A stretch of 64,000 nucleotides of DNA from Eledone cirrhosa (lineage: Eukaryota): assembly GCA_964016885.1 (NCBI GenBank), contig OZ024742.1, positions 149,668,001-149,732,000 of the forward strand, given 5' to 3'. This document shows, piece after piece, positions 2,027-59,128 of this stretch (its first letter is position 1; each line of letters begins with the position of its first letter). The position numbers and the translations under genes are program-made. The notes beneath the pieces are model-generated. The model worked only from the letters and a program-made list of their open reading frames with translations, was not told the origin of the DNA and searched no databases.

Positions 2027-2052
2027 ATAAATATATATATATATGCACACAG

Positions 2053-2232
2053 GAACGTCGACAAAAGGAAGCAGCAGAAAGAGAACGCCGGGAAGCAGAA
2101 GATGCTAAGAAAAAGATAGCAGACGAAAAACTTGCTGCTGAAGATGCTATACGACGACAAGCTGAAGAAGAACAGCAGAAGAAAGAAGAAGCAGAACGCA
2201 AGAAGAGAGAAGCAGAAGAAAGACGCAAGAGA
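2053..2232 (+). CDS. TnI: Troponin I exon, N-terminal E/K/R/A-rich extension (ERRQKEAAERERREAEDAKKKIADEKLAAEDAIRRQAEEEQQKKEEAERKKREAEERRKR), phase 0-0
   Basis: cacAG acceptor at 2051-2052 and GTAAGT donor at 2233; 180 nt open frame. A charged helical extension like this is typical of long molluscan (scallop-type) TnI, and it is in phase with the downstream TnI exons. Confidence 0.85.
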
Positions 2233-2299
2233 GTAAGTCATTTATAATTTTGAAAGTTATGTTAATATTTACTTCTCTCTCTGTGAATATATACACATA

Positions 2300-2660
2300 T
2301 CATCATTATCACTATCACCATTTAACGTCCATTTTCCATGCTTGCATGGGTTAGACAGGTTGTCACGTTATGCTCATACGAATCTAAATATTGGCTTGGC
2401 TTTTACAGCTGGATGCTCTTCTTATCACCAGCCACCTTACATAGTGGACAGGGTGCTTTTTATCATGGCACCAAAACGACTACCTTACAGGGTGGACAGG
2501 GTGCTTTTTGTATGTCACCAGCATAAACAACTTACAGTGTGCACTGGGTGCTTTTTCTCATGTCACAAACATGACCACCTTATAGGGGTGGCTGGGTGCT
2601 TTTGTTGTCACACCGAATCAGCATACAGGATAGATTTTGTACTTTTTGTCATGTTAACAG
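2300..2660 (-). mobile_element. Old SINE copy with about 5-6 tandem copies of its internal aaaaagcaccc...tgtaa(a/g)gtgg module
   Basis: Reverse complement of the gcaagcatggaaaatggacgttaaatg(atg)n tail at 2300-2361, plus repeated gggtgcttttt blocks. Confidence 0.6.
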
Positions 2661-3151
2661 CATTCTGGGAGATTAGATGTTGAGTATGTCCGGCTCCCCC
2701 ACACACACACACACTCCACCCTGATTACACCTTCAGATTTATGCCTGTGATTATTGGGGCACTGGGATATGTTAGTAACTGCCTCAATACAAATCTTGAG
2801 AAGCTAGGCTTCACAGGAACAGAAAGAACACAACTAGTTAGGAAATTAGAAGTACAATCCATTAATGGAACAGTAAAAATATGTAAAACATTCCAAAAAT
2901 TTTGCATCTAATAACTGCATATACACATGTACAGATACAAAGCATATACACATGCACACATACAACTCAAAACATATACATCCACACATGCAATAACATC
3001 CATATCTACACATGCATGCATACATACATATCTACCTAGTTGATGTTGTGTGAATTTCAATGAGAGAGTCTTGTGTCTATGTTAGAAACTGACTCTCCCT
3101 CTATTGGTAACTTTGTGAAATTATAAAACCAGAAGAACATACATACATACA

Positions 3152-3760
3152 TGGTGGCTGCCAACTCGTTTTCGAGTACGGCCACTACTTTATATCCATG
3201 TAAGAGAACCCCTACCAATGCGCTGAACGAGTGTGACTTTTTAGTCCAGCCAGCGACTTGAAAACTCGGGTACAAACACTACACTTGTGACAATTATTGA
3301 CACATAGTGCTAGGCCCATGGTACCATGTGACGACAAGTGCAGAGAGATCTCCAGATACAAAGCAATGCCTGTGCCGTGAAGCTTTTATAGTGAGCAAAG
3401 GAACTGCACAAAGCCAGTCCCACTCTCTTAACCAAGATGATATTTACCAAAAAGAAGAACAAGTCAACATCATTGGATACCATCAGGGTTGCAGGTGTTA
3501 TATCAGAGTTTTCCTTCTCCTAGAATTCTGCCTTGACAAAGGCTAAGGGGTCATCTCTCCTGGTGATTTTGGATGGCCATTGACTCTTAAGAGCTCCTTT
3601 GCCCTTTGACAGGTTTTGTTTTTAGTCCTGCAGGATGTCCAAAGTCACCCTCCTCACCAAGAAACCTTGGTGGGGTTGCCAGTTTAGTCGCCAACGACCC
3701 GACCATGAGACATGTTGTACTGGGATACATGTTACCAGTAGCACCAACTGGTGACCTGAC
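3152..3760 (-). mobile_element. About 610-bp non-autonomous retroelement with an RTE-like 5' UTR, inserted in an (ACAT)n array
   Basis: Minus strand contains ctaggagaaggaaaactctg and ggtcgggtcgttggcgactaaactggc, resembling RTE-clade 5' UTRs (recalled). (ACAT)n lies on both sides, and the 3' half recurs at 17453-17755. Confidence 0.6.
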
Positions 3761-6700
3761 ATACATACATACATACATACATACATACATACATACATAC
3801 ATACATACATACATACACACACATATACATATATATATATATATATACTGGCCTGCCCCTCCTCGTAATGGTGCCACCCAGTTCCACACTGTAAATCTGG
3901 CCAGATTTGTCTCATGTTGTGGATGACCTGTCTAACCCATGCAAGCATGGAAAATGGACATTAAATGGTGATGATGATGATGATATATATATATATAATG
4001 GTTTTGAGTGTTTCTGTTTATTCAATTCTTTGTCTTTTTATATATGACTTTCTTTCTCCCACCATCCCATGTCTTCCCTTCTATCTTGTCTCTGTTTAAT
4101 TTTCCATCAATCCCTCTCTTTTTATCTACTCCCGTTTCCTTTGATGTTGGGAAAGCAGTAAGGAAAAAGAATAGTCTGAGCACTATACTAAATAATTACA
4201 CCCCAATTCAGAATTGAACATTTTTTCTTCTTGTTTGTGTATGAGTGTATGAATGGTGGGTGTTTTTACTATGCACATGTGAACTTTTCAGGGTTAAGCA
4301 CTTTGGTTAAGCCACATATTTTCCTCTCTGTAGCCAGTAAGAAATAAAGACCGACCTGACTAGTTTCAATATCTTTTACTGCTTTATCAGAGATCAGTTA
4401 TTTATCTTCCTGGAAGAATAGTAATTTGAAGCTATTCACAGTAGACACAAAATTAAATAGAATTAAATCGGTTTTCTTCAGTATGCATAAAAGTGCAATT
4501 GTTGGTAACATTATTCAATCAGTAGAAGCAGGACACAAGCTTTTTTTAAAATAAATTGTAATAGACTTCCTCAACAAAGTACAAGATTTCACCATAGTCT
4601 GCATAGTGATGTTTAGTTAACATTCATCTTTGTTGAAGCTAGAAGCTAATTGGCTGGAGCTTATTTTGGTTTCATATAGCATTAAGTGATTGACAGTACA
4701 CAACTTTCCACTAGACAAGATACCAGCCCAACACAAGATTAACTCCCAGCTGTTACTGTTGCGGCTGGGGCTCATTTTTATCAGCTAAGTGGTCTGGAGC
4801 AACATTTAGCGTCTTGCTCAAAAACACAATGTGCCACTTGTCTGAGAATTGAACCAATAACCTTAAGATCATAAACCTAACATCCTAACCACTAAACCAA
4901 ACACCTTCAATAAAGTTGTGATGAATGCATCACTCAGTAGATGTACAATACAATATTGTACACAGTAAGCATGAACAATGATAATAATAAGTCTTTTGAT
5001 AACAGACTATTGAAAACCATCCCAATTCTATAATAGAAAGCTGTTTGCTTTAAAGTGTTTACATTTATCTAAAAATGTTTATCATAATTTTATGTAAAAT
5101 CCTTTGTTAATGTATGTCCAAAACAGCAGCTTAATAATGAGAAAGTTCGTTATAAAAACAAAATCTTGCCAAATTCTTGATTATTTTCAAAATTATTTTT
5201 AATCATAGGCAGTGACTTTCATATAGCAATGATAGTGTTAAAAAAGTTTCCACTGAATATTAGTTACTCAAATGCTTTCCACATCTTGATATTCCTAGAA
5301 TTGGCAGGCATATATTCAATAGCTAGGTAAACTGATGTATTTAGAATAAAATGATCTTGTTCTAGACAGGAACTGGAATACTTGTCAGAAGATTTGAACT
5401 CACAAACTAAGCCCTGGTAGTTAGTCAAGTATTTATCCATTCAGTTGCTTTTACACAAAAATCTAATTTTTAAAAGTAAGATTGAAAATAGAGAATTAGA
5501 TAATATAAGATAATAGATAATTTTAAATAAATCTTTCTTCTGATCATTTTATTATCCTCTTCTTTATGGACATTGTGTTTGTTATATGTTTGTCACCATT
5601 ATCACCATCTTTATCATCATGTACTAAACAATAACAAAAACTACAAAGTATTTTGGTCAAGAAGGAATGGAATAGTGACATTGCAAAAGTTTAACAACCT
5701 CTCTCTGCCATTTATGATGACTGAATATTATCATACTATGAGCAGTGTCCATATTGATGCTACTACAAACTTTTGTCAGTTATACAATATTAAACAGCTA
5801 TACATCTATCCTTCTCACACATCTCCAATATCATCTACCAAATTTAATTGGTGTGCTTACCTTCACCTCGGTGAAGCTGTCAGAAATTTTTATTTATTAT
5901 GTATTTCCCTGTGATCTTACTTCCATAATTGTATTTTCTAGACATAAAACAGATAGTAAGGTCAAACAAAATTCCTCTTGCCTACCGACTTCCTCTCTGA
6001 TTCTTCCTTTAAATCTTAAAAATGTTGCTGCCTTCCGACTTCCTAAGCAGAACATTTTGTGGCTTAGATGGAAGGGGATAGAAATATAGAAGAAAAAGAA
6101 AGATGGCAAGTCATATGCTAGTAGCCAGCAAGTTGTACAGCAAACTTGCCAAATAATATTAGTTTTAATAATAGTTGCATACTTTATCCAACCTTGGAAG
6201 GTCAAATGCTTAAAGGGAAAAAGAGCATTGCCATGCATAAATTGCCATTTGCATCTCTGCATATTTGCAGTAAATAATATTACTAGAGTAACATTTTCAT
6301 AATGTCAGTCTTATTGCATGATTAAGAAAGTATGTAATAAATCTTACATATCATCATCACCTTCACAACCGCCATATTGATCTGAGTCACAGTCACTATC
6401 TTCATCATCTTTATCCCTTACTTCTTCGACATCTTCATGAATTTTATTCCTTCTTCACCATGAATATTATTTATGTTTGTCTAGCTTTTATTTTTGAAGT
6501 AGCATAACTCCTAAAAATACTTTAATGTACATTTTGATAACAGATATACATCATATACTTTCTCCTTTCTCTCTCCCCTTCTCTCGCCTTTGAACAAAAA
6601 TAAACATATTTTCCCCTTCCTTTGAAATATATCAATTACAGTGGTTTCTGTGTTGTTACTTAACACCTAACTATCTCTTTAGTTTCTCTCTATCTATAAC

Positions 6701-7099
6701 ACATTGCCAGTGCAGAGTAATTGTGAAATTCTGGTTATTCAAGCTTCATCTGCTAATTGCTTCACTTACTTTCAGTAAATCCTATTACATGCTGCTTCAC
6801 TTAGTGCCCAACTCCTCTAGTTTCCTACAGCATTAAATATCCTCCCAGAATTGAATATCTATTGTAATTAGACAAAACACTCAATTCTAAATCTCATTGC
6901 AGGTAATTTAGGTTTCTATCTATCTTAAAAGTTATATAAGATAGGAATATGATTTCAGTTAAGTGAAGTAAATGCATGACAAAAGCGCCATTAAAGTCAT
7001 TTAAAACACATATACAATGTTTTGTACACTTATGGTTTACTTTGTAAAAGTATAATATACTATAAAGTGTGAAATCTTTTTACAAAAACAAAAATGAAT

Positions 7100-7226
7100 A
7101 ATAATTGTTTCTACTTTAGGCACAAGGCCAGCAATTACCTAGTGCATTACTGGTACTTTATTTTATCGACCCCGTAAGGATGAAAGGCAAAGTCAACCTC
7201 GGCGGGATTTGAACTCAGATCGTAAA
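7100..7226 (-). mobile_element. 5'-truncated young tRNA-SINE (family A) with target-site duplication
   Basis: Reverse complement of ...gagttcaaatcccgccgaggttgactttgcctttcatccttacggggtcgataaaataaagtaccag...; aaatgaataataat on both flanks. Confidence 0.85.
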
Positions 7227-8309
7227 TGAATAATAATGTATGTTTTTAATGATTCTAACATGATGTAGTTGATTCAGTTTCAACATATGATCACAAATCA
7301 AATTCCTTGCCAAACGGGCCCATGTAGAGCTAGTAATGAGCTCCTATATAGATGGTAATGAGGCTCATGTAAAGCTAGTAACAAGCCCAGGTTAGATGTA
7401 AAATGTAGAGTCTATTTCAATTGATAGTTGGTCCTGGTAACCATTGCTTAGGATTTAAGTATGGGTTATGGGTATATACATGTAGTGTACAGCATATACT
7501 TACAAGTAACACAACAGTATAAAAGAATTAGAATGATTTCTATAAAAAAGGTAATCTTTAACCAAATAATCATCCCTTTGGCTTTAACTACAATGAAAGG
7601 ACCCCTTAAAACCATAGGTCCATGCCAACTGAACCACCTCTCTTCTGCTCCCTGTTTAAACATGCTTGCCAAACAAATACAACTCCTAAAGTTGATTTCA
7701 ATTTCTCTTGATTGTTGATGGAGACAACATTGTTTGAGAAAATAAACCTATGGTACAGAGATAGTTGATGGAAGAGATTTTTTAACAAGTATTCTATTTA
7801 ACGTTTTGTAGATATTATATATTAAGAATTAGGACTTTAAACATTAGGTGTCTATTTTAAAATAGCATAGAGATTGCTGAGAGAGAAACTGTATTGAGCA
7901 GGTTAATGTGGTCCTTTTTGGTTGTTTTCTCTTGGAATAAACATATGTATTTCACAAATATTTTTGAACAATGAAAAATAACAAAAGTAGATGAGAATTA
8001 TCAGCAAAACCTATGAAAAACTATTCAATATGAGTATGAAATTTCCTGTAAATTTTGCATTAAGATATGTGGAATTATGTTTATCTCAATTCTGTTATCG
8101 TTGTTGATCACGATGATGAGATAGATGAGGTATTTAGTAGATAGTATGGCAATACAGCAGAGGCAGGTTCCAGATATTAATAGATTTTCTATCTATCCAA
8201 GGCTATCAAAGATGTAAACTGTAAGAGTTGTTTTGATAATTGTTATACATCTATGCCCTACATAAATAATAATAATTATCATTTTCATATCTGTGTATTA
8301 TTACTATTA

Positions 8310-8950
8310 AGGTAGGGGATTGTCAGGATCATTATTGTCAGGCAAAATGCCTTGTGGTATCTGTTTTAACTCTGAATTCAAATTCTGCCAAAGTCAGCGT
8401 TGCCTTTCATTTTTCAAGTTTTGATAACATAAAGTACCAGTTGAGTAATGGGGTCAATACTAACCACTTCAGCTCAAAAAAATGTTATCATGTGCCTATG
8501 CAAAGAATTATTAGTATTGTAATTACTACTGGCAAAAGGGCAATTGATTGGCAGTATTGGTGGAGTGTTGAATATGCTTTGTGGCATCTGTTTACTTTCT
8601 GAGTTCAAATCCCACCGAAGTTAGCTTTGCCTTTCATTCTTATGGGTTCGATAAAATAAAGTGCCGGTAATGCACTCTTGTTGATTTAATAAACTTTCCC
8701 CTCCTCCAAAATTGTTGGCCTTGTGCCTAAATCAGAAACTTTATTATTACTAGTTGGGCAGTGGTTTGGCAGTATCGGTAGAGGGTCAGACCCATGATTT
8801 GCAGCAAAGCGTTACGGCCCTTTATGGTCTGAGTTCAAATTCCGCCAAGGTTAACTTTGCCTTTCATCCTTACGGGGTCGATAAAATAAAGTACGAGTAA
8901 TACACTGGGATAATTGCTGGCCTTGTGCCAAAAGTAGAAACAATTATTAT
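8310..8950 (+). mobile_element. Three head-to-tail family A SINEs, youngest at 8756-8950
   Basis: A box (tggcagtatcggtaga), B box (gagttcaaatcc), core gcctttcatccttacggggtcgataaaataaagtac and (att)n tail, repeated three times. Confidence 0.85.
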
Positions 8951-11900
8951 TATAAGTTAATAGCTGTAGTTCACAGAAAAAAAATTGCAAATAATAAAAC
9001 AAATCCTGTTTTCTAATAAACGTCACTTCATGATAATATAGCTTAATTATGTGTCTTAGTTTTATAGCCTCTTTCTGTATTACTATCCTTCTCTACCTTT
9101 TCCTCTTTATCATCATCATCATCAGCATTATCATGATCGTTGTCATCATTTTCAGAAGACCGTATTCTGTTGGTTCTCATATTTCAAAGCTATTTGTATG
9201 CTGTGTTTTATGTCAATTCATGTAGTTATGCCATCTATTTGGTGGTGGTGGTGTTGGTAGTGGTGTTCCCCATGTAGTACCAAATTATTATAAAGTTAGA
9301 CACCAGATGTCACCTGAGAGTGGGTAGGTCAGGTAGGCAACTGTGATATATGTTTATATGTATGTATATCAGTTTTAAGAGATATCACTTGACATGGTTC
9401 ACTGTTTTTGCTACTTTCTAGGAGTGTGCCAAATATTCATATTCTGCAACAAGAAAGCAGTCAATAAAAAAATGTAACAGGTTTTTGAGTTGCAATGATA
9501 ATTTTTTGTTTTTGTTTTTGTCATTGTCATTTGTACTACTTTTAGTCTTTTCTTATTAGTTAGTTTGGTATAGTATTGTTCTAGCTTATAAAATATAAAT
9601 AAATAACCAAAATAAAGATAATGCAGATTTGAGTGGATTTTGTCTTTAAATCATTTGTTATATTTCTAATAAAAGACACTACCTATGATTTTTAAATAAT
9701 TTTGAAAATAATTAAGAATTTGAAAGGAGTTAGTAATATAATTAACTTTCTCATTATTAAGCTGGTGTTTGGATCATGACTCAATAAAGGTTCCTATATA
9801 AAATGATGATGGGGAAATTCATAGATAAACATAAACACTATAAAATAAATAATTTAGTGTCATAGAACCTGGGGTGATTACAAGCAGTTTGGTATATGAA
9901 TTAGTTATGCAGTATGTTTATCTGGTTTATTCTGCATGCTGCAGCATCCATCCTCTTCTACTGTCACATCAACTGACATTTTTGCTTGCCAACTTGACTG
10001 AAACCTGAGATTCCATAGAGTGAACGTGCATATTTACACATGATATATTGAAACATATTGTGTGTTGTATAAGTTTCTCTGGTAAATTGCCAATTTGCAT
10101 CTAAAGTGCACTACTAGTATCTATCTCAACATGTACCATCTGCATCTTACACACATAGTCCAGTTTTCTGCGTTTTATGTCAATTGTGTGCATGCATATG
10201 ATATAATTAGGTTTGAACTAGTAATAAATGTGTTAATAATATCCACCTGTTTACAAATAAACTTAACATGATAATTGGGACACAGTGACAATTAGGCACA
10301 AAATAAAAATAAAATTGACCTCTGCTGCTTGATAAAATTGAACTGTTTTATGTGCTTTCTAGATTGATTCTTTAGTTAAGATATATATATATAAAGGACA
10401 TAAGTTCAAATCCCAGTCTGAGTGCCAGTCATGAATGATGGAACTACATTGAGCCAAGCACCACTGTAGGCTTGGGAGGCCAAGTGGAAGCATGCCAGAT
10501 ACATACACAGAGAGAGGAGGATAAACATATTTTATGGCCATTTTTCCCTACTAAAGCTTGGGTTAGAAGCATTGTGGGAATAGAAAATGATCCCTCTCTT
10601 TTGTCTGTCTTTTTTTCTGTTTGTCTCTTTCTGTATCCCCCCCCCCCTCTCTCTTTCCCTCTCTCTCATATTTACTTTTAGCTCTATATTGTGATAAAAT
10701 AACTTCCAATGCTATAAATTAATCTTGCTTACTTTTCAAATGTTTTAAAATACAGCCATTTGTTTCAGTGAAGACATTGTGTTTAAAGATACATGGTACA
10801 AACTATTATTTTCATTTCAAAGCTATTTCATATTTTTTTACAGTTTAGAGTCCTGATTTTTTAACACTTGATTCTAGCTTGCTAGTTTCTATATTTCTGT
10901 GTTCCTTTAAAAATGCATATTCTATTACTTTTTGTTCTCATAAACATTTGGATAGTTTCATATTGGAATTAAAATGGGGAAAATCGCAGGAACAAAATTA
11001 GCTGCATTAATCCAAAATTGTATTTAGTTATTCCTTAACTTCTGCCTCTGGAAGTAACAACACAGATCTATCTAGTAGAGTGTTTTAAATTATCCCTTAA
11101 GTTCTCAACATTTAGACAAAGTTTTTACAGATCATTCCTCAATTTGATAATAAAGACTCTTAGACATTTTTTTTTATTTTTGATAAAAATATATGTAGTA
11201 TTTAAGAATTATTTAACATCTAATATATACAATAGTTAGAAGTGCATGAACATCACAAACTCTTTCAAGTAATGGACATTTTTGCTTGGTCAGGAAAAAA
11301 CCAGCATTAGGTGTCTTCATTGTGTATTAGTAGGAACATTCAAATGATACTGGGTTATGTAGGCTGCAATTTAGGCAACTTATCTAGGATGGTAGTAACT
11401 CTGAGTAAAAACTGCTAGAGGATGAGGGAAGTCTTAAGGTCTGCCAAAGGTATCTTTTTGTAGCCCTGGTGGCATGATAAAATGCACCCTTACTTTTCTG
11501 TAAAGTGAATGAGATATTCTGAGACCCATTCAATCTAAGCAAGCATGGTATGAGATACAAGCTTTTTATTTCTCAATTAAAGCCAGTTTACTAACTGCTC
11601 TTTAGAAAATTCAGAATGTCACCCAGCCAGATGCATTCCCATAAAATTTGTAGCCCTGCTAGTTGCTAATAAGTATTGTAGGAAAGACCAGAATTTGATT
11701 TTGATTCTCATTCATAACTTTTTCACTTCACTTTACATATTGCTATGGACACCCAACTTTCTCTTTTCCATCAGGTTTATATCTGAAATCATATTTGTAT
11801 GTATGTAATTGATTACATGAATTGGTTCAGATACATTGTTTTGTATCAGGGATAATATTGATTCTTTTCAACTATGCATAGGGGCCATATATTTTAAGGT

Positions 11901-13282
11901 AGAAATGTTGTAAGATTTAATGGCATAAGGGATGTGAAGTGGAACAGTCTTGAACAGAGATTGAAATGATGTCTTGTTTTGCTTAGAGTTCTATTCAATA
12001 CTTGTTTCGCAAACATTGCTTCTTGAGAATGGATTCCTATACTATGGTGATTTCTGCCAGAGTCAGTATTAAAAATGAGTTCTTTTCACTACCATATCAA
12101 TAAGGGTGTGAAATCTGTGGATCTGATTAAGTACTAACTTTGTCTGGAATAACCTGTCCAACCCCTGCTAACAGGGAAAATGGACATTAAATAATTATAT
12201 ATATTTATATATGTGTAATGCCTAAGTCATGATGGGACCATTACAAATCTATCTGGAGTTGAAGGTCTAATGACTTAGGAGACAAGTGGAGTACTAAATT
12301 TTATTTAGATGTCTTCACATTAATGAACGTTTTCTTTTCTGAAAACAGGGTCTCAGTTATCTTTACTTGTATTATGCTGCCATCATATATATTGTTTACC
12401 AATGAGGTAGGGTCATACATATTTCTATTTTGAGTTTGTGTGTATATGCATATGCATTCATACATGTAAATGGCACAATGACATGCATATAAAACACTTT
12501 TTCTGATAGGACTATTGGCCATCTTCATGAAATATTATAGTTTCTACTTTTACTCCACCTGAATATTATTATAGTTGTTCATTATAATGGTTAATTGTTG
12601 TTGCTAGTCTGATCTGTTTGAAGTGGGTAGGTAGTGATAACGATAACAATGATGGTGGTGGCAGCAGTAGTGGTGATGTAGCAGCCTTATGATAAAGGTA
12701 TATATAAATGTTTGCAAGAATATGGTGGGGCTGGAATGTTTCTCATATTACATAGCTGGGGTATTTCTAGTGTGATATAGATAGCTCTCTACTCTCAAGT
12801 AATCACCCCACCCCCCCACTTTCTCTTTCCCTATTTTTTTTTCTTTCATTTCTCACACAGCATCTAAGCGAAATAAAAATATAAATACAATTTGCAGGAA
12901 ATAGTAATAAACTAAAAGACTGGTGTTGATGATAGTGGTAATAGTAGAGATGGTAATAGAGAAGAGAAGATAGAGTGGCTCTGATGTTTTCCATTTGGCC
13001 TGGCTAGCTGAATTGTTTGTAAAGCACTGAGAGTTCTCTGTTATCGGTTCTCTACTACTGCTATTTGTAACAGCTTGTTACCTCTAACCGGTGTGCATTA
13101 CATGTGGAGTTGCTACTTTTTCTGATGCCGAATGGGGTATCATGTCATGTGATCCTCTTACTGTATGCCTGCCACTGATACTTTTCTGCAATATAGAACA
13201 GCCTTTTGGCAAGGGGCCAATCTATAATAATCTTGAGAGAAGCATTCTAAGACCTAAGACCATACCATTATAACCAAGCAGC

Positions 13283-13320
13283 TATTTAAACCCTGGTATC
13301 ATCTGTAGACTTCTCAGTGG
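13283..13320 (+). promoter_or_regulatory. Candidate internal core promoter (TATA box plus initiator) for a short TnI isoform
   Basis: TATTTAAA at 13283-13290 and Inr-like TCAGT at 13314-13318 (A about 33 nt after the TATA start), followed by ACC-ATG-TCT|GTAAGT. Confidence 0.55.
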
Positions 13321-13396
13321 AGTGTTTTTTGCAACAGAAAGTAGTTAAGAGGGGTTACCTGTCTTCTGATTTTTTCTTCTCAAATTCACAATAACC

Positions 13397-13402
13397 ATGT
13401 CT
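13397..13402 (+). CDS. TnI: Coding part (Met-Ser) of a candidate alternative first exon of TnI; exon about 13316-13402, phase-0 donor
   Basis: ACCATG context, perfect GTAAGT donor at 13403, and phase 0 matching the acceptors at 22127 and 31804. Confidence 0.6.
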
Positions 13403-14502
13403 GTAAGTATATCCTTTTGTTGGTTCAACTACATAATTGTACCTTGGATCAATTTTTGTATGGATTTAACTGCATTGAGGTAAGTAAGGGATTGTTTAAT
13501 TGCATGGTGACATCCAAGATTTTTTTTTTTTTTTTGGCTTGTTTGATAAACTAGCTTCAAGAACACCAATTCCAAATTTCTAGTTATTCTCTACCTATAT
13601 ACAATCATAAATTAATTAAAAAAACTATAGTTTAGTTAAACTTCAATTCATTTTATTGAATGTATTTAATCTATTTATATTTCTCATTATGAAAAATATA
13701 AATAGATTTTCTCTTTATATAATGAACAAAATGTTTTAATGTGTTATTAAATATGCTAAATAAAAAACATATGTATATATGTATGTGTGTTTATAAGTAT
13801 GCATGTAATAGAACATAAAAAAGATTACTTTATTTAGCATATTTAATATATTAAAACTAACCTTTTTATTAGTACATTTTCTAATCTAACTATTTAGAAA
13901 TCTAAGTCAGTTATTATATGGATATATTTATTTTATTGAATCAAGACAATAATTTGGTTTTGAAAAGATTATTCAAAAATAATTTAAGTATTTATTTTTG
14001 TAATGTAGATAAATAAATCTAGATGTTTTTTCAAAACATTCTTTAAAGCTACATCTTTGAAGAGAGAGGAAAAAAATACAAAACACCTCAAAACAAAGAA
14101 GCCACAAAGTCATAGTCTTTTAATTCACTTTATTGATGGATGTCTAAAGTAACATTTGAGTGCTATTTATTTATTTATTTGTTTGTTTTTGATGTTATTT
14201 TCTGTGTATGCTTTAATTGAAGAACACTTGTTTGTGGGAAAGGAAACTCAGATTCTTAAAACTGATAGAAAAACAAGCAAAGATTTAACAATTCAAATTT
14301 ATGATTTTTTCTCTCTCCTTTCTTTATTCCTACAACTTGTTTCTTTGGTATTTCATAAAATTTAAAATTATTTCAATGGAAAATTTAAACACTTTTATGA
14401 CCATGTTTACAAACGAAATACACTGTATTTCAATTAATTAACGAAAAATTAGTGGGGGGATTTACTAAATTTCATCAGTAACATGGAATTTGCAATATTG
14501 AT

Positions 14503-14948
14503 GAAGGCGCATGGCTTAGTGGTTAGAGCATTGGGCTTGTAATTGAAAGGTTGTGAGTTCAATTCTCAGACAAGGTGATGTGTTGTTTCCTTGAGCAAGA
14601 CACATTGCTTTTCACATTGCTCCAGTTTACTCAGCTCTAGAAATGAGATGATAGGACTGGAGTCCCTATCATTCTACTGCAAAGTGGTCGTGGAGGTGCC
14701 ACGGCAAAAAAAAAAAAAGCACCCAGCCCACACTGTAAAGTGGACATGTAGGTTCCATGGCAAAAAAGCACCCAGCACTCACTGTAAATGAGGTTGGTGT
14801 TAGGAAGGGCATCCAGCTGTAGAAATCAAGCCAGAATCAGTTTCCATATGAGCAAGACAAGGTCAGCCGACTGGACACTGCCCACAACAGGACAAGTCCC
14901 ACCCTTGCAAGCAGGAAAAAGCGGACGTAAAATGATGAAAATGATGAA
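14503..14948 (+). mobile_element. CORE-type tRNA-SINE (family B) with a duplicated internal module, apparently nested in an older TTAA-type MITE
   Basis: tRNA head tggcttagtggttagagc...gagttcaattc; CORE-like ccttgagcaagacac...ctcagct...aaatgag; ttaggaagggcatccagctgtagaaa; ggacgtaaaatgatga tail. Confidence 0.85.
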
Positions 14949-16320
14949 AAGGTTTCTTATATAAAATTATATTGGAATGTTATAATTTAAAGAAGAACCC
15001 TTCAAAATAGGTGGTTAAGTTTCATAGATCCAGAGGTGGGTTGGTATGAAAAGAGTTAACAGAATTGTAGATGAACCACTTGTTAACCTTAAGTAGAGTA
15101 TCAGACAAAATGCCTTGCTTTTGTATATAGTTACAGTCTTTTATGTTCTGAGTTCAAATCCCACCAATTTCAACAAGGTAAATAATGGGTCAATTTAATT
15201 ATATTGTCCCTCCCTGTCAAACATTTCTGGCATTGTACCTTTGTAAAGAATTATTAATTTTGTCAGCGTACCGCATATTTGTTTTTTCTATCAAGTTGCC
15301 CTTCCCTTTGACACTTGAGACGTATTTTGTTTGATGCCAAATTGCCTGAAACCACCCATGGTTCTATGATACTAAGTTATTTATTTAAAAAGTTTTTATG
15401 TTTATCTAAAAATCTTCCATCATAATTTTATGTGAGAAACTTCAAACATTAGCTTAATCCCAAATACTTAATAATTTTGAAAATCAAAGACACTGCTATC
15501 TATTAGAGATATGGTAACAAAAAGGTTCAAAATGTAAAGGGATCAATAATAGAATGACTAAATTCTAACTATATTCCTAAGTTGTACCTTTCTTTGGAAA
15601 TATAGTAATGAGAGTGTTAAGACTTTAGCAGAAAAATGTTCAATAACTTGTCTAAAGACTGATAAAACATCAATCAATTGATATTAATTCTCATTATTTT
15701 GGTTTCCTAAATGCCTCCTTTTTTTTTTTACATACATATATCTTGAGTCAGTTAGGGAAACATTACATGGTTGACTGATTTACTAGACATAGCTGATAAA
15801 TTTTCCTCAAATCCCCTTGATCTGTTGGAAACAGTAGACAAAACCTCCCTATAAATAAATGCTACCACCTTCAAACGTGCTCATATTGGATAGTATTGTC
15901 TGCTGTCTGACAAGGTTGGAAATGTTGTCTGCAGTATGTTAAGGTGGAAAGAGTTGTCTGACATATGTTAAGGTGAAAAAGTTGTCTGATGTATGTTACA
16001 TGGGTAAATTGGGATGGTCACTATATGGAAAATGGGATAACTCCAATATAAAACCTGCGGCTCAGTAGTTAACGATGATGTTGATCTTTTCTTCTTTTCG
16101 GGTTATAGCTACTGTTGCTCAGAGAGTGGGATTGGCTCAGTGCAGTCTTTCCTCACTTTAAAAAATATCTTCATGCACAGGCATTGAACGATAGAATTAA
16201 TTAATAATTATTAATAATGGTATATCGTGCAATGGCCATACTCAATAATGAGGGGGCAGTCATCATCATCATATATATGTATGTATATCCAGTTTCATAT
16301 GTGTATATGTGTGTGTATGA

Positions 16321-16362
<42 letters not shown>

Positions 16363-16459
16363 ATTAAAATACTGGAGCGTGTTGGAGTTAAACACCCTCT
16401 TCGTATTATAGAAATGACAGTAAAAGGTATAGCTCAATGTAATTAAACAGAGCCGAAGA

Positions 16460-16586
16460 ATTATGAAAATAAAACAAAGAAGCTTTCAATACATCAAAAG
16501 TCTTTATTAGCCAACAATGTTTCGTCCAATATTGGCTAATAAAGACTTTTGATGTATTGAAGGCTTCTTTGTTTTATTTTCATAAT
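16460..16586. repeat. Foldback hairpin with 55-bp arms, probably a Penelope-like element end
   Basis: 16460-16514 pairs with 16532-16586 (1 mismatch); the loop reads ggacgaaacattg on the minus strand. Confidence 0.75.
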
Positions 16587-16626
16587 ATATATATATATAT
16601 GCATGTATGTTTGTATATATATCTAT

Positions 16627-16784
16627 CTAAGGCGGGTAAAATTCCCGAGATCCATGGACGAGTTCTCTCCAGCGGTCTCTGTCCCTCATTATCGCTGCCA
16701 TGTCCTGCATCACCAACAGACCAGTGTCTGTCCTTAGGGCATCAACATATGTTAACCTTGGTCTTCCTCTTCTAGTGTGTCCAT
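16627..16784 (-). mobile_element. RTE-clade LINE 3' end fragment
   Basis: Minus-strand translation [48 protein letters not shown] fits the RTE C-terminal RGRP...W pattern. Confidence 0.8.
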
Positions 16785-17452
16785 ATATGTATGTGTATAT
16801 ATGTATGTATATATATATATCCAGAGAATATCCAACTGATAAACTATGATTTTCCTGGGTATGTCTCTATTTATATATATATGTGTGTGTGTGTGTGTGT
16901 ATATCTGTGTGTGTGTATATATGTGTGTATATATGTGTGTGTGTATGTATGTATGTGTATATATATTTATGTATGTATGTATGTATGTATATCTATGTAT
17001 GTGTATATATATGTATGTATGTATATGTATATATGTATGTATATGTATATATGTATGTATATATATATGTATATATATATATATGTATGTATATATATAT
17101 GTATATATATATATATGTGTATGTATATATGTGTATGTATATATGTTTATGTATATATGTGTATGTATATATATGTATGTATATATACACATATATACAT
17201 ACATATATATGTGTATATATATGTGTATGTATATATATGTGTGTATGTATATATATATATTTATATATATATATATATATATTTGTGTGTGTGTATGTAT
17301 GTGTGTATGTATGTATATATGTGTGTATGTATGTATGTATATATGTGTGTGTATGTATATATAAATCTGTGTATTTATATGTATATATATGTATGTATAT
17401 ATATATGTATGTATATATATATATGTATATATATGTATATACATATATGTTA

Positions 17453-17755
17453 TTTTTGGTAAATATCATCTTGGTTAAGAGATTGGGACTGGCTTTGTGC
17501 AGTGCCTTTGCTCACTATAAAAGCTTCACGGCACATGCATTGCTTTATATCTGGAGATCTCTCTGCACTTGTCGTCACATGGTACCATGGGCCCAGCACT
17601 ATGTGTCAATATTTGTCACAAGTGTAGTGTTTGTACCAGAGTTTTCAAGTCGCTGACTGGACTAAAAGGTCACACTCGTTCAGCGCATCGGTAGGAGTTC
17701 TCCTACATTCATATAAAGTAGTGGCCGTACTCGAAAACGAGTTGGCAACCACCAT
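17453..17755 (+). mobile_element. 5'-truncated copy of the 3152-3760 element, embedded in TA/TATG microsatellite
   Basis: Near-identical reverse complement of 3152-3450; both ORF translations give [35 protein letters not shown]. Confidence 0.85.
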
Positions 17756-17882
17756 ATATATATGTATATATATATATATGTATGTATATGTATATATGTA
17801 TATATATATATATATATATGTATATGTATATATGTATATATATATGTATATGTATATATGTATATATATATGTATGTGTATG

Positions 17883-17913
<31 letters not shown>

Positions 17914-18220
17914 GTATGTATATATATGTATGTGTATGTATATGTATATATATATGTATGTATATGTATATATATATGTATGTATATATGTATGTATATG
18001 TATATATATATATGTGCATGTATATGTATATATATAAATGTATGTATATGTATATATATATGTATGTGTATGTATATATGTATGTGTATGTATATATATA
18101 TGTATGTGTATGTATATATGTATGTATATATGTATGTGTATGTATATATGTATGTGTATGTATATATGTATGTATGTATATATATATGTGTATGTAAATA
18201 TATGTATGTATATATATATA

Positions 18221-18417
18221 GTAGGACCTACTGCAAAATCAATACATGTTTTGTTACGAAGAATGAACTGTGACGTGAACTTATTTCTAAAAACCCATTC
18301 CGGAACACTTTTTAGTTTTTTATGCCCTTGAGAAGCCCTTTCGGGCGAAACGTACATAGGCCCTATTTTAAGTAAACATGTTTTAACGGTTTGTTCTCCC
18401 TTATATATTTCTTCATA
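18221..18417 (+). mobile_element. Penelope-like terminal fragment with a degenerate minimal hammerhead-like motif
   Basis: cttgagaa-gccc-tttc-gggc-gaaacgta at about 18327-18354 (stem II GCCC/GGGC, GAAA, ACGT palindrome); a unique island inside TA repeats. Confidence 0.5.
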
Positions 18418-18459
18418 TGTATATATATATATATGTATGTATATATATATATATATATG

Positions 18460-18569
<110 letters not shown>

Positions 18570-18642
18570 TGTATGTATATATATATGTATGTATATATAT
18601 ATATGTATGTGTATATATATATGTATGTATATATGTATGTGT

Positions 18643-18678
<36 letters not shown>

Positions 18679-19120
18679 GTATGTATGTGTATATATATGT
18701 ATGTATGTGTATATATATGTATGTATGTGTATATATATGTATGTATGTGTACATATATGTATGTATGTGTATATATATATATGTATGTATGTGTATATAT
18801 ATATGTATGTATGTATATGTATATATATATATGTATGTATATATATATGTATGTATACATATACATGTATGTATATATATGTATGTATATATGTATGTAT
18901 ATATATATGTATGTATATATATATGTATGTATATATATATATATGTGTATGTATGTATGTATGTATGTATGTATGTATGTATGTATATATATATGTATAT
19001 ATATATGTATGTATGTATGTATATGTATGTATATATATATGTATGTATGTATGTATATGTATGTATATATATATGTATGTACATATGTATGTGTGTATAT
19101 ATATGTGTATATATCTATAT

Positions 19121-19462
19121 GGAGGCACATGGCTTAGTGGTTAGAGCATTGGCCTTGCAATCGAAAGGTTGTGAGTTCAATTCTCAGACCGGGCGATGCG
19201 TTGTTTCCTTGAGTAAGACACTTTATTTCACATTGCTCCAGTTTACTCAGCTGTAGAAATGAGATGATAGGGACTGGGATCCCTATCATTCCACTGCAAA
19301 GTGGTTGTGGAGGTGCCACGGCAAAAAAGCACCCAGAACTCACTGTAAATGAGGTTGGTGTTAGGAAGGGCATCCAGCTGTAGAAATCAAGCCAGAATCA
19401 GTTCTCGTCCCACCCTTGCAAGCAGGGAAAAGCGGACGTAAAATGAAATAATGATGATGATG
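19121..19462 (+). mobile_element. CORE-type tRNA-SINE (family B), full length
   Basis: Same head, CORE-like block and tail as the copies at 14503, 29938 and 43361. Confidence 0.9.
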
Positions 19463-19547
19463 ATATATATATGTATATATATGTATATATATATATGTAT
19501 ATGTATATATATGTATATATATGTATGTATATGTATGTATATGTATG

Positions 19548-19595
<48 letters not shown>

Positions 19596-19617
19596 TATGT
19601 ATATATATATGTATATA

Positions 19618-19658
<41 letters not shown>

Positions 19659-19713
19659 ATATATGTATATATATGGATGTATATATATGGATGTATATAT
19701 ATGTATGTATATG

Positions 19714-19745
<32 letters not shown>

Positions 19746-19789
19746 TGTATGTATATGTATATATATATATGTATATATATATATGTATG

Positions 19790-19832
<43 letters not shown>

Positions 19833-20019
19833 GTATGTATATATATGTATATGTATGTATATATGTATGTATGTATGTATATATATATATGTATATATAT
19901 ATATGTATATATATATATGTATGTATATATATATATGTATATATATATATGTATGTATATATATATATATATGTATGTATATATATATATATGTATGTAT
20001 ATATATATGTATATATATG

Positions 20020-20058
<39 letters not shown>

Positions 20059-20061
20059 ATA

Positions 20062-20106
<45 letters not shown>

Positions 20107-20481
20107 ATATATATATGTATGTATGTGTATGTATATGTATATGTATATATATCTGTATGTATGTATGTATGTATGTATACATACATAAGTGTTAACATCA
20201 GTCAAGTAAAAAAAAAAAATTAATTATGATGATAGCAATAATAATCTTTGCCACATTTCTTCAAGTGTTCTTCTGCATATGCATAACTAATATTAAATGT
20301 CAGGCGTATTATGCCTTCTGCTTGAGCTCTTCATTTGATTTATTAATATACTAATACAGAGAAAGCTACTACCACCTTACTGGGATAAACATTACTTGTT
20401 AGCACCTTATTTGTCTACTTCACTTCAAGCCTTTTCATCAAAACACTGTGCAGTGTGTAAACATGTTATATATATATATAT

Positions 20482-21210
20482 ATACATATTTCAGAGGTAC
20501 TGAGCTATCTTCAACAGTACGTCCTCATCAGATAAAATATGATGATGCATGATATATATATTATACATATTTCAGAGGTACTGAGCTATCTTCTACAGTA
20601 CGTCCTCATCAGATAAAATATGATGATGCATGATATATATATTATACATATTTCAGAGGTACTGAGCTATCTTCTACAGTACGTCCTCATCAGATAAAAT
20701 ATGATGATGCATGATATATATATTATACATATTTCAGAGGTACTGAGCTATCTTCAACAGTACGTCCTCATCAGATAAAATATGATGATGCATGATATAT
20801 ATATTATACATATTTCAGAGGTACTGAGCTATCTTCAACAGTACGTCCTCATCAGATAAAATATGATGATGCATGATATATATATTATACATATTTCAGA
20901 GGTACTGAGCTATCTTCAACAGTACGTCCTCATCAGATAAAATATGATGATGCATGATATATATATTATACATATTTCAGAGGTACTGAGCTATCTTCAA
21001 CAGTACGTCCTCATCAGATAAAATATGATGATGCATGATATATATATTATACATATTTCAGAGGTACTGAGCTATCTTCTACAGTACGTCCTCATCAGAT
21101 AAAATATGATGATGCATGATATATATATTATACATATTTCAGAGGTACTGAGCTATCTTCAACAGTACGTCCTCATCAGATAAAATAAGAGATACATGAT
21201 ATATATATTC
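20482..21210 (-). repeat. Tandem array of 9 near-identical 81-bp units, each carrying a hammerhead-ribozyme-like core on the minus strand
   Basis: cagaggtac starts at 20492, 20573, 20654, 20735, 20816, 20897, 20978, 21059 and 21140. The minus strand reads tattttat-CTGATGA-ggacgtactg...cagtacctct-GAAA-tatgt. Confidence 0.9.
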
Positions 21211-22126
21211 ATACATATATATGTGATATATATATTATATATGTTTATGTGCACACTTATAAAAAGCTACTGTGTTAAGCAGGTTAACACAATATATATC
21301 TTGTGGGAAATTCAATCCTTTAAATTTCTGGTGTTTGGCTTATATCATTTAAGGAAAACTAGAATCGAGGCTTTATGATGTGTAGCCCTATATCTTATTG
21401 CCTATAATTTCAAATCCTCCCCTACACTCATACGCAGATTTAGTTTGCAATTTCAACCTTTGTTGTCTACAAACTATATAATGATATAAAACTGTAATCT
21501 ACCTACCTTTTATATAAGATTAAAATATGTTGTTCTGTTTTCATAATACATATATGCATGAGATTTTAGTTTATTTGTCTGTGAAAGATGAGAGTATTCT
21601 TTCCATCACCATGTTACTTATTTCCTATTAGAATTAATTGAGATTCTGATGCTTCTAAACAGTTCAAAATATTTCTTTGGATACGAGTTGTTGGCCCTGA
21701 GGTTATTTGGTTTATTTAAGCATTGTTCGACAATATTTACCTGTAGTGTAGTCTTAATTACTTATAGTTATCATACTTACAATATCAAGTGTGATAGTAT
21801 TTAATTATCTATCCACATCTTTATAGTATTTGGTAGCAACTTTTCACTAGTAATGTGAATTGATATTGATAAGAACAATGCTAGTTAATTCAATTGTGAT
21901 TTTTTAAATTATCTTTATCACTAAGATATATATTTTTTAAAATATTCTAGTATATTTGGTAGCTTTCTCTACATTTTATAAGTGTTCTGTATAGTTTTGC
22001 ATGAGTCAAATTGATTTTTTATTGATACATATCAGTTGTATTTTTGATTATTAATTTGAAAATTAATTGCTTTTGTTTTTTAACCATGTTGTGTTTTATA
22101 TGCATGTTATCCTTGCATGTTAACAG

Positions 22127-22555
22127 ATTAATGAACGTTATAAACATCTGGTTACCAATGACACATCAGATAACTGTGAACCCTCTCCTAATCACTTTAA
22201 CATTGAAAGAGATGTCACATATGGCCAGGATGATGAGGATGATGGTGATGATGAAAAGGAAGATGATGATGATGATGATTGTGATAGTGATTTTGAAGAA
22301 GGACCTGAAAAATCAGACACATCCCTGGAACTTCAGAACCACAGTGGAAATTCTGATGACTGTTTGAATCAGAAAACTAATTCTTTTTGTTCGCCTATTA
22401 AAAGAAATTTTGACTCATCCGCTGAGATTCGAGTAAGTACTGCAAATCCTCTGACAGATTCTGAGCGACTTTCAGCAAAAATACTGAATGATTTGTCTCC
22501 AAAGGTTGCCGCTGATGATTACACTTATAATACATCAAACATATCTGAAACAAGG
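22127..22555 (+). CDS. Candidate cassette exon, 143 aa, acidic/disordered (INERYKHL...GQDDEDDGDDEKEDDDDDDCDSDFEEGPEK...SNISETR); alternative in-frame donor after 22432
   Basis: taacAG acceptor at 22125-22126 with an in-frame TAA just upstream; no stops for 429 nt; donors GTAAGT at 22433 and GTGAGC at 22556, both phase 0. Confidence 0.65.
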
Positions 22556-24082
22556 GTGAGCAAATTAAAAAAATCTCATTTTTCTTACTACAACAGTATT
22601 AAATACTATCAAGTTATAATTTCTAAATACTTAGTTTTTAGTTTATATTTCATATTGTGCTGGGGTTGATTTAATCGACTTTCTGCTCTTCAAAATTGTT
22701 GACCTTGTGCCTAGATCAGAAACCATTATTTTTATTGTTAAGAATCAATTTCTCTTTATAAAATCTGATGATAATGACCACTATTTAAATTTTAGACAAA
22801 TAAAAGGCATGACATTCCCAAGAAGAATCATATTCCTAGCAGAGGTTCAAACTTGATGGATATACAAAAGAAAGTAAGCACTATCTATGTCAGAATTTAT
22901 TCTTTCAATTAGAACATTAGGTAAAGATTTATTAAAGCTCATTTCCCCTCGAGTCAACTTTGTCATGTGTTTCTTATGAAAGGTTGTTCTTCTTGCTTCA
23001 GACAACTGGATTTAAAGTTGAGTAGTTTCTATAAAAAAGGGGTATCCATATAACAAAAAATATTTGCTCCCATACTTTATACAAATATCTGATGTATGTA
23101 GAAAAATCTAGTTTATATCTGAGAAACTATCTATACAATTATATCTTATTCGCTCTCTCTCTGTTGGGGATTGTTAAGTTTTGGCATCTTGAAAGCTGAA
23201 TTCTCTAAGAAATATTTCAAAAGGAGCAAAATCAAATCCATTTTCCTTATGTTTAAATCATATATTAAAAGAAAGAAAGAGCAATAAATGATTAGTTTTC
23301 AAGTGATTGAGCCAAGAGATATCGTTATAAAATTATGTAATGGTATTTACAGTTGAAATAGTTTTACTTTTTTAACATTGTCCATCTATTTTTGGCTGGC
23401 AGTTAATATCCCACTGTTAGATTTATCTAAGAAACTTACAATGTTTATAGAACTTGCTATTTTTGTACTTTTTCCTAGCTATTGGCTCCACTTATTTCTT
23501 CTTTTGCTGCGTAATCTAAGACTATTTTCCTCTTTCCTTATCTCTTTCATAATGGAAAGAAGGAAAAATCTTAATATACACATATATCTTACTCATGCAT
23601 ATGCTTAGTTAGTGTTATGTTTATTCAAGTGTTAAATATGTAAGTCTTACACTTAGAATATCTACTGCTGTAGCTGCTACTGTCTTACTAAGTTCAAAAC
23701 CTTAATGTTGTCATTACGTTGTGCCTCTAAACAAGGTATCACATAATACCTACCTTAGTGCTGCTCACTAAAAAATAGATTCCACTTCATGGCTGGGTGA
23801 TTAACAGTAAGAAAGACATTCAGTCTGAAAGAGTATTTTCCCCACAATGCATATTCAAGTATCTGGAAAGAAAAGCTTGGGAAAAATGGACATAAAAGAA
23901 GAAAAAATAAAAGAGGGAAGGAAATGTATATTTGGGTTTTCTCACTTTTTAAAATAGTTTTCCCAACCCTATTAGAATATTAACTACTACAAGCTGTTAG
24001 ATATTGAACATTTAGAGCAGAGGTAGTTTTCTTTTACATTCTGTCTTGTCTTAACAAGAACAAAACATTTTTCCCCATACAG

Positions 24083-24148
24083 TTTGAAGCTGTGAGCAAA
24101 CAAGAGCCAAAGGAATTTGGTAAAAGAAATATAAACTTTCATGAAAAC
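24083..24148 (+). CDS. Candidate cassette exon, 22 aa (FEAVSKQEPKEFGKRNINFHEN), phase 0-0
   Basis: tttttccccatacAG acceptor, GTAAGC donor at 24149, 66 nt with no stop. Confidence 0.6.
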
Positions 24149-58996: not shown

Positions 58997-59128
58997 GAGA
59001 GAAAATGACAAAATTAACTGATGTCAGTCAGCTAGACTTAGATGACACTGATGATGAGACAAGGAAGAAACTAATACTTTCACAACGTATAAATCATTTA
59101 CCTGACAATCTTGAAGAACTAAGTAAAG
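58997..59128 (+). CDS. TnI: Candidate alternative exon, divergent counterpart of exon 62871-62991 (EKMTKLTDVSQLDLDDTDDETRKKLILSQRINHLPDNLEELSK-G), phase-1 donor
   Basis: ctgcAG acceptor, ATG at 59005, G|GTACTG donor at 59129 in the same phase as the 62991 donor. KLILSQRINHL...LEELSKG aligns with ERFISERVEPL...DGLNEG. Confidence 0.65.

What the first reader, a model, noticed from the sequence alone, without database searches (positions are those of the whole stretch)
20482..21210. Nine-copy 81-bp satellite built from a minimal hammerhead ribozyme and broken at its cleavage site
Seen on the minus strand of each unit: stem I arm tattttat, CTGATGA core, stem II (ggac-gtactg/cagtac-ctct), GAAA, then the self-complementary ATATGT (palindromic stem III) followed by ataatat, which pairs with stem I only if the cleavage nucleotide (C of GUC) is missing. 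In the edge copy the motif joins (TA)n at exactly that point. Full units differ only by an A/T in the stem II loop (copies 2, 3 and 8). Known: minimal type I hammerheads with palindromic stem III occur in Penelope pseudo-LTRs and in tandem non-LTR retrozymes, and cleave as dimers. Inference: a young retrozyme-like or Penelope-derived array whose boundary was set by self-cleavage; as written it may be inactive.
Basis: partly seen in the sequence, partly recalled or inferred. Interest (0 to 1): 0.72.

Follow-up and report, generated by a model that had tools for sequence, protein, structure and literature searches.

The report
Locally duplicated Penelope hammerhead fragment
This is a nine-fold tandem repeat of an 81-base scrap from the end of an abundant Penelope-type jumping gene; its hammerhead self-cutting RNA motif keeps a normal cut site but has lost most of one supporting helix, so it is likely an inactive, ordinary by-product of local DNA duplication.

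Summary
The array is real: 9 hammerhead cores, period 81, minus strand. The 'missing C' is wrong. Helix III is an 8-nt palindrome and the cleavage triplet is AUA, a natural one. 3,570 of 4,046 exact genomic matches carry it with a perfect 8-bp helix I, and sister families covary in that register. The parent is a Hydra-clade Penelope-like element with the motif in its pseudo-LTRs. What the array lost is the 3' arm of helix I (3 of 8 bp left), so it is predicted to be near-inactive. Self-cleavage did not demonstrably set the edge: 3 of 4,046 matches end there, against 2 at a control site. The unit occurs only here (8 of 8 matches), antisense in an intron. It most likely arose by duplication between AT-rich microhomologies, then local expansion. 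Tandem arrays born from PLE ends are already proposed (Li 2026 preprint), and this scan noted Hydra-type hammerheads in this genome before, on other DNA. Low interest.

The parts
20481..21203 (-). Array of nine hammerhead-bearing units, period 81 bp, each a fragment (about -23 to +3 relative to the core and the cleavage site) of the pseudo-LTR of a Hydra-clade Penelope-like element
20930..20936 (-). Catalytic core C3-A9 (CTGATGA) of one representative internal unit; the others start at 21179, 21098, 21017, 20855, 20774, 20693, 20612, 20531
   Evidence: invariant apart from position 7 in alignment A1
20898..20929 (-). Helix II of that unit: 3 bp, a C.C mismatch, 6 bp, 12-nt loop holding the A/T variant
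   Evidence: fold; 4 of 6 scored pairs change on both sides across families
20887..20894 (-). 8-nt palindromic helix III (A15.1 to U16.1), predicted to pair only between two motifs
   Evidence: three different 8-nt palindromes in sister families; 100% of cells paired
20886..20886 (-). A17, the cleavage nucleotide (triplet AUA); predicted cuts between 20886 and 20885 and every 81 bases, the last between 20481 and 20480
   Evidence: AUA is natural in ELVd(+) (PMC1636495 abstract)
20878..20885 (-). Damaged 3' arm of helix I: after 3 parent bases it runs into a TA tract, leaving 3 contiguous pairs of 8
   Evidence: duplex +0.3 against -3.2 kcal/mol in 5 of 6 parent copies
20937..20944 (-). Intact 5' arm of helix I; it overlaps a competing hairpin that pairs with the core
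21206..21218 (-). Flank sequence matching the unit end (8 + 4 bases, one extra G): likely microhomology for the first duplication, or a decayed partial unit
20467..20484 (.). (TA)n tract at the 3' edge of the array; its first bases overlap helix III and A17, so the junction is ambiguous over 4-5 bases; the parent's tail is absent
2239..22126 (+). Apparent intron of a plus-strand host gene (exons 2047-2238 and 22127-22561 match consecutive parts of octopus proteins); the hammerheads are antisense to it

Best explanation
The array is nine tandem copies of an 81-bp piece of the hammerhead-bearing pseudo-LTR of a Hydra-clade Penelope-like retroelement, likely made by DNA-level duplication and expansion at this one locus and predicted to self-cleave poorly or not at all. 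Shown: parent identity, intact core, helix II, 8-nt helix III and AUA triplet, truncated helix I, single locus, antisense intronic position. Inferred steps: (1) a 5'-truncated pseudo-LTR stub inserted into a TA tract, like solo stubs L005, L010 and L025, which begin at the same base; (2) slippage or unequal exchange between the AT-rich end of the motif and a look-alike stretch in the 5' flank duplicated 81 bp and replaced the 3' arm of helix I with TA; (3) the tail was lost by a deletion between TATA in helix III and the downstream (TA)n; (4) one internal unit expanded recently and the loop variant spread to 3 units, while the 5' edge unit was left out. If transcribed, each unit would likely fold its core into a competing hairpin instead of the double-hammerhead.
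For: Parent: 4,046 exact 21-mer matches, 3,570 with intact AUA plus helix I. Copies with pseudo-LTR, RT/GIY-YIG ORF, about 2 kb 3' UTR and second pseudo-LTR in L122 and L123. Hydra motifs in several copies (against PMC8557442 section 11). Single locus: 8 of 8 short-linker tandem matches are this array. DNA-level history: all 8 junctions identical, flank microhomology, 5' edge unit diverged at 3 positions. The same family made 10 other short tandem arrays with other breakpoints, none holding a whole core. Activity: helix I duplex +0.3 against -3.2 kcal/mol; the active dimer lies about 32 kcal/mol above the best fold, against 13-16 for three parent copies.
Against: The 3' edge lies exactly at the last position compatible with the cleavage site, and a cleaved RNA ending in UAUA could pair with a (TA)n primer. 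Both variants seen in the array also occur in dispersed copies (loop A in 3 of 27 held arms from 2 loci, upstream CA in 4 of 27), which could mean mixed templates or gene conversion. Nearest-neighbour energies ignore core and tertiary contacts and rank even the parent's active fold 13-16 kcal/mol above its best fold. Published PLE hammerheads have helix I as short as 2 bp (PMC4209133) and one needs its protein to cleave (PMC11167929). The 15 rows of A1 were hand-picked from motifs found by a descriptor that required these helices, so the pair counts lean towards the structure. The flank match may be a decayed unit and not the cause.
Confidence: 0.78

Rival explanations
1. The repeats were written at insertion: the PLE reverse transcriptase copied the same short RNA stretch several times by template jumping, starting on a cleaved RNA end or at internal TA microhomology.
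For: Ten other arrays of this family sit at the 5' side of a final complete copy, 9 of 10 beside a clear inverted arm, where cDNA ends are joined. One of them (L170) has units of 57 and 84 bp with different junctions. Array variants also exist in dispersed copies.
Against: This array has no inverted arm and no tail; all 8 junctions are identical and contain flank-like TA sequence; the 5' edge unit is more diverged than the internal units. For PAc, uncleaved RNA is the dominant template and no RNA-seq reads ended at the cleavage site (PMC11167929).
Confidence: 0.1
2. It is an incipient non-LTR retrozyme: antisense transcripts are cut into 81-nt monomers as double hammerheads (perhaps with help from the PLE protein), circularise and could be mobilised by the parent's enzyme.
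For: Every unit has an intact core, helix II, helix III and AUA. Li et al. propose that PLE ends give rise to tandem retrozymes by local amplification and report units of 51-972 bp. The genome holds many parent ORF copies, one with a 750-codon open frame.
Against: No second locus. Helix I is 3 bp and the core is paired in the predicted folds. The unit lacks both parent 3' end sites (about +55 and +150), where 30 of 30 sampled arms end. Eight of nine predicted Xenopus retrozyme dimers did not cleave in vitro.
Confidence: 0.06
3. One reading: a GUC hammerhead lost its C, and self-cleavage fixed the array boundary.
For: The edge copy meets (TA)n at the cleavage site, and the 6-nt register gives 7 of 8 helix I pairs within the array itself.
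Against: 0 of 30 read non-A copies show the predicted ancestral form; 3,570 of 4,046 have AUA with an 8-bp helix I; a sister family with ATGCGCAT cannot pair in the 6-nt register; no excess of ends at the cut site.
Confidence: 0.03
4. The copy number is an assembly artefact of a single or double motif.
For: No short-read contig spans the whole array.
Against: A structured A/T pattern across units; junction contigs at about 6-11 times flank depth in runs X1, X2 and X4.
Confidence: 0.02

Closest known systems
Hydra-clade EN+ Penelope-like elements (Craig et al. 2021, PMC8557442; passages, section 11 and supplement rows read)
   Same: The parent has RT with C-terminal GIY-YIG, RW and DKT motifs, a CxCx5C linker, no CCHH, CxxC and CxH around E/N, a hammerhead in pseudo-LTRs, (TA)n targets, inverted 5'-truncated copies and a one-sided tail.
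   Different: The motif reads RWR in place of RWK; the unit is about 4.5 kb (Hydra 'generally <3 kb'); the tail is about 95 bp, not 30-40. The hammerhead differs from the one listed for Hydra-1_Obim, and two of its motifs are absent from the supplement text, so this is another family.
Minimal hammerheads of PLE pseudo-LTRs (Cervera and de la Pena 2014, PMC4209133; parts 1-2 of 4 read)
   Same: Type I, long helix II, palindromic helix III needing a dimer, thousands of mostly solitary copies, inverted pairs close together.
   Different: Parent helix I is 8 bp and AU-only (4-5 bp typical there); in the array it is cut to 3 bp. Helix II starts with G-U or A-U and has a conserved C.Y mismatch at its fourth position.
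Metazoan non-LTR retrozymes (Cervera and de la Pena 2020, PMC7229834, passages; Li, Clavereau and Pollet 2026, bioRxiv 10.64898/2026.07.22.740005, parts 1-3 of 5)
   Same: Head-to-tail repeats, each with a type I hammerhead core, low GC (31%), related to a PLE pseudo-LTR; Li et al. propose this local-amplification origin.
   Different: Single locus; unit 81 bp against 150-450 bp for the tested families; minimal instead of canonical hammerhead; helix I broken; no evidence of RNA, circles or mobility.
PAc Poseidon element mechanism (Frangieh et al. 2024, PMC11167929; parts 1-2 of 4 read)
   Same: Two reverse-transcription start sites downstream of the hammerhead give two 3' ends; the parent here ends at about +55 (18 of 30 arms) or +150 (12 of 30), not at the cut site.
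   Different: Different clade; the sites here lie upstream of the ORF; the array retains neither.

Membership tests
Minimal type I hammerhead | Core CUGANGA ... GAAA ... NUH | tested here: met
   9 of 9 units; triplet AUA
Minimal type I hammerhead | Helix II with covariation | tested here: met
   4 of 6 scored pairs change on both sides across 15 selected motifs
Minimal type I hammerhead | Palindromic helix III allowing dimers | tested here: met
   8-nt palindromes, three variants
Minimal type I hammerhead | Helix I of 4-5 bp or more next to the core | tested here: not met
   Array 3 contiguous bp, duplex +0.3 kcal/mol; parent 8 bp, -3.2
Minimal type I hammerhead | Rfam hammerhead model hit | tested here: inconclusive
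   No hit for the array or for an intact parent control
Minimal type I hammerhead | Site-specific self-cleavage | not testable with these tools
   Needs an in vitro assay
Hydra-clade PLE (parent) | Single ORF, RT then C-terminal GIY-YIG | tested here: met
   L035, L122, L123, L178; Pfam support is weak (RVT_1 E=0.023; GIY-YIG E=0.005 in homologue P0004; none for L178)
Hydra-clade PLE (parent) | DKT, RWK-type, CxCx5C, CxxC and CxH motifs; no CCHH | tested here: met
   All six motifs in L035 and L122; subsets in the other 12 of 14 loci scanned; R in place of K in RWK
Hydra-clade PLE (parent) | Pseudo-LTRs with hammerhead, inverted copies, (TA)n target | tested here: met
Hydra-clade PLE (parent) | Placement in the clade on an RT tree | not tested
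   Reference proteins were only seen in the supplement; resemblance judged by eye
Non-LTR retrozyme | Tandem units each with a complete type I hammerhead | tested here: inconclusive
   Tandem and core present; helix I incomplete
Non-LTR retrozyme | Dispersed copies of the unit (mobility) | tested here: not met
   8 of 8 exact-pattern matches at this locus
Non-LTR retrozyme | Monomer-length linear and circular RNA | not testable with these tools

The most novel reading that the evidence does not exclude
The array is a retrozyme caught at birth from a Hydra-clade pseudo-LTR, with a twist: its intact core and 5' arm can form a full 9-bp helix I plus 8-bp helix III with the parent element's RNA but only 3 bp with itself, so an antisense transcript would be a cleavage-resistant, nine-valent trans-acting hammerhead aimed at the parent retroelement's RNA.
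Probability: 0.04. Interest if true: 0.6.

Novelty: new member of a known kind. Interest (0 to 1): 0.2.

Why it matters
As it stands it matters little: it is one more piece of a large PLE family, and arrays born from PLE ends are already proposed in print. It is a clean worked example of that step, with parent, breakpoints and likely microhomology all visible, and it was the only one of 11 short tandem loci found for this family that kept a whole catalytic core. It also shows that tandem hammerhead arrays called from a core motif can be structurally dead. It would matter more if the array made 81-nt circles or cut the parent RNA in trans.

Tried and rejected
Rfam scans found no hammerhead in the array or in an intact parent control; the snoRNA and microRNA hits lie far below their gathering scores and are treated as chance. 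The 'missing C' register was tested and rejected. A GUA triplet one register earlier was rejected by inspection because helix I cannot pair. I first took the parent for Neptune from the cysteine linker (recalled); the DKT, CxCx5C and no-CCHH pattern fits Hydra. The pattern was meant to catch edge-type junctions too but did not; one search did that. Sequencing runs: no RNA holder listed. RAD-seq runs X7 and X8 covered only dispersed family copies and not this locus, and X5 and X6 hold at most family pieces, so allele variation was not seen. A genome-wide count of the loop A variant was not obtained; only 27 held arms were counted. Pfam names neither the host exons nor most of the parent ORF. 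Lunse et al. 2017 on PLE hammerhead dimers was not held and is recalled only. Paper searches showed no description of this family or array; the bioRxiv supplements of Li et al. and Repbase/Dfam could not be seen and may hold it. Folding the whole array gives z = -0.66 against 20 shuffles.

Full report
OBSERVATION. Tandem Repeats Finder gives an 81-bp array at 20470-21218 with 9.2 copies and 98% matches. On the minus strand there are nine CTGATGA cores at 81-base spacing (21179 to 20531), each followed by a 32-nt hairpin and GAAA. Three of nine units carry the loop A variant. The 5' edge unit differs at three more positions upstream of the core. Short-read contigs that span the array-specific junction have depths of 103, 138 and 29 against flank depths of about 9, 13-15 and 3-5 in runs X1, X2 and X4. 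The tool warns that this is no copy number, and the runs come from one study, but it fits an array of roughly this size. Rfam finds no hammerhead here and none in an intact relative.

THE CLEAVAGE SITE IS INTACT. A search of the own genome (3.0 Gb) with two units returned 72 matches on many contigs. Dispersed copies read GAA, an 8-nt palindrome, A, and then an arm that pairs perfectly with the 8 bases before the core. A 21-mer ending in the palindrome has 4,046 exact matches and its reversed control 0. 3,570 of these continue with the intact site and arm. Only 44 have a base other than A after GT, 15 of them C. Among the 30 of 44 read, 27 are point substitutions and 3 are junctions or small rearrangements; none has C followed by the helix I arm. 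A descriptor over all held loci found 88 distinct motifs, 85 with 8-nt palindromes, including sister families with ATATATAT and ATGCGCAT before the same A. On 15 selected motifs this register pairs 97.8% of 270 cells, with 24 cells changed on both sides and 0 of 500 shuffles as high. The rows were picked by a descriptor that demanded these helices, so the figures lean my way, but the genome counts do not depend on it. AUA is a natural triplet, the slowest of four tested in the ELVd(+) hammerhead (PMC1636495, abstract).

WHAT IS BROKEN. In the array the 3' arm of helix I keeps three parent bases and then runs into TA. The helix I duplex is +0.3 kcal/mol against -3.2 in 5 of 6 parent copies (-0.8 in one mutated copy). 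The active double hammerhead lies about 32 kcal/mol above the best fold, against 13-16 for three parent copies. A hairpin that pairs the core with upstream bases exists in the parent (-3.8) and is slightly stronger in the array (-4.3); it forms in every unit of the whole-array fold. These energies omit core and protein effects: some PLE hammerheads have a 2-bp helix I (PMC4209133) or need their protein (PMC11167929). 'Near-inactive' is therefore a prediction.

THE PARENT. [quoted passage not shown] L122 and L123 have pseudo-LTR, ORF, UTR and a second pseudo-LTR with hammerheads 4.5 and 4.4 kb apart, in (TA)n. The protein shows RW, DKT, CxCx5C, no CCHH, and CxxC/CxH, the features that define the Hydra clade (PMC8557442 section 11). 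No tree was built. 143 scored ORF matches exist in the genome; most are broken, and the longest open frame is 750 codons and lacks the N-terminus. The published Hydra-1_Obim has another hammerhead. In a position-ordered sample of 30 arms, 18 end about 55 bases and 12 about 150 bases past the cut site, in TA tracts. This matches the two-start-site tail model shown for PAc, where uncleaved RNA is the main template.

THE EDGE. The left edge copy joins (TA)n at or up to 4 bases before the cut. Genome-wide 3 of 4,046 matches do so. Two break into TA ten bases further on at a similar microhomology, and two loci, this one included, at +3. The numbers are small, but there is no excess at the cut site. 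The two other cut-site cases are truncated arms of inverted insertions.

ORIGIN OF THE ARRAY. Head-to-tail motifs with a 10-40 base linker give 8 exact matches, all here, so the unit has not spread. Solo stubs beginning at the same base in a TA tract exist (L005, L010, L025; selected by my query). The 5' flank holds an 8 + 4 base match to the unit end with one extra G. An exchange within it gives exactly the junction seen eight times. Searches for repeats of the 5' half with periods 46-107 found 11 loci: this one and 10 others of 2 to 21 units. All 10 lie 5' of a final complete copy, and none repeats a whole core. The family is thus prone to short tandem duplication whether or not a ribozyme is included, which argues against selection for a retrozyme here. 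Repeated copying by the RT at insertion remains a rival, mainly for those 10.

CONTEXT. Exons at 2047-2238 and 22127-22561 on the plus strand match consecutive parts of octopus proteins (58-78% identity). The array therefore appears to lie in an intron of about 20 kb, antisense to the host RNA, which would carry only the reverse complement. The genome is likely an octopod's.

COMPARISON. It works like, at most, a minimal PLE hammerhead dimer. It is not filed as a retrozyme, because dispersal was tested and not met and helix I is incomplete. Tandem arrays arising locally from PLE ends are proposed by Li et al. 2026, who found cleavage in 1 of 9 tested dimers. Earlier notes of this scan report Hydra-type hammerheads and two-armed insertions elsewhere in this genome; none matched this place or this sequence.

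BOLDEST READING. The array's core can close a 9-bp helix I on parent RNA but only 3 bp on itself; the gaps to the best fold are 17 and 29 kcal/mol, against 14 for parent on parent. A transcript could in principle be a stable trans-cutter of the parent RNA. Nothing here shows transcription, so I put this at about 4%.

VERDICT. Real, explained, a new instance of a known kind. Interest 0.2.

Noticed in passing
L004/L133 (G000:C8:17739200-17740900), L155, L158, L130, L170, L132, L154, L168, L169, L171: Ten other loci where this family forms short tandem repeats (57-99 bp, 2 to 21 units) of the pseudo-LTR 5' half, always 5' of a complete final copy and in 9 of 10 beside a clear inverted arm. Most break in helix II and restart about 60-70 bases upstream of the core. 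The centre of inverted PLE insertions looks like a minisatellite nursery.
   Followed up: partly
L039-L068; reference L037:2900-3060: 14 of 30 sampled arms have their 5' end 55-70 bases upstream of the core, about 30-40 bases downstream of a TATA-like box at -97. This suggests that many stubs are full copies of the RNA's 5' leader from a pseudo-LTR promoter (the alignment end is affected by variants in the reference).
   Followed up: partly
L122:5401-5460, L123:1640-1720: Both parent 3' end sites (+55 and +150) carry AT-rich words resembling the (TA)n target; in tandem copies the +150 site is followed by a short TA run and then the 5' UTR, so priming may use TA microhomology.
   Followed up: no
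L010:568-642, L016:2894-2959, L041:827-896, L081:986-1054, L091:2754-2823, L035:3681-3747, L017:1044-1094: At least five sister hammerhead families near sampled loci share the 8-nt palindrome, A17 and a C.Y mismatch at the fourth position of helix II; one unrelated family uses a 6-nt palindrome.
   Followed up: partly
L031:2444-4038; L128:8211-9458: Two other Hydra-like PLE ORFs of different families; the second is 35-46% identical to the parent.
   Followed up: no
window 2047-2238, 22127-22561, 22790-22885, 24056-24160, 26514-27587, 58972-59157, 62877-63023 (+): Exons of a host gene whose octopus homologues (890-1,000 aa) have a charged, troponin-T-like N-terminus; 3 of 4 carry a precomputed PF00992 hit. 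Further 5' exons lie 23-35 kb upstream of the window.
   Followed up: partly
window 49047-49910 (-): Fragment of a LINE-type ORF with a zf-RVT domain, E=2.7e-7.
   Followed up: no
window 16872-20187 and 32343-35333: Very long degenerate (TA)n/(TATG)n tracts of 2.4-3 kb; they cause the spurious microRNA hits in Rfam.
   Followed up: no
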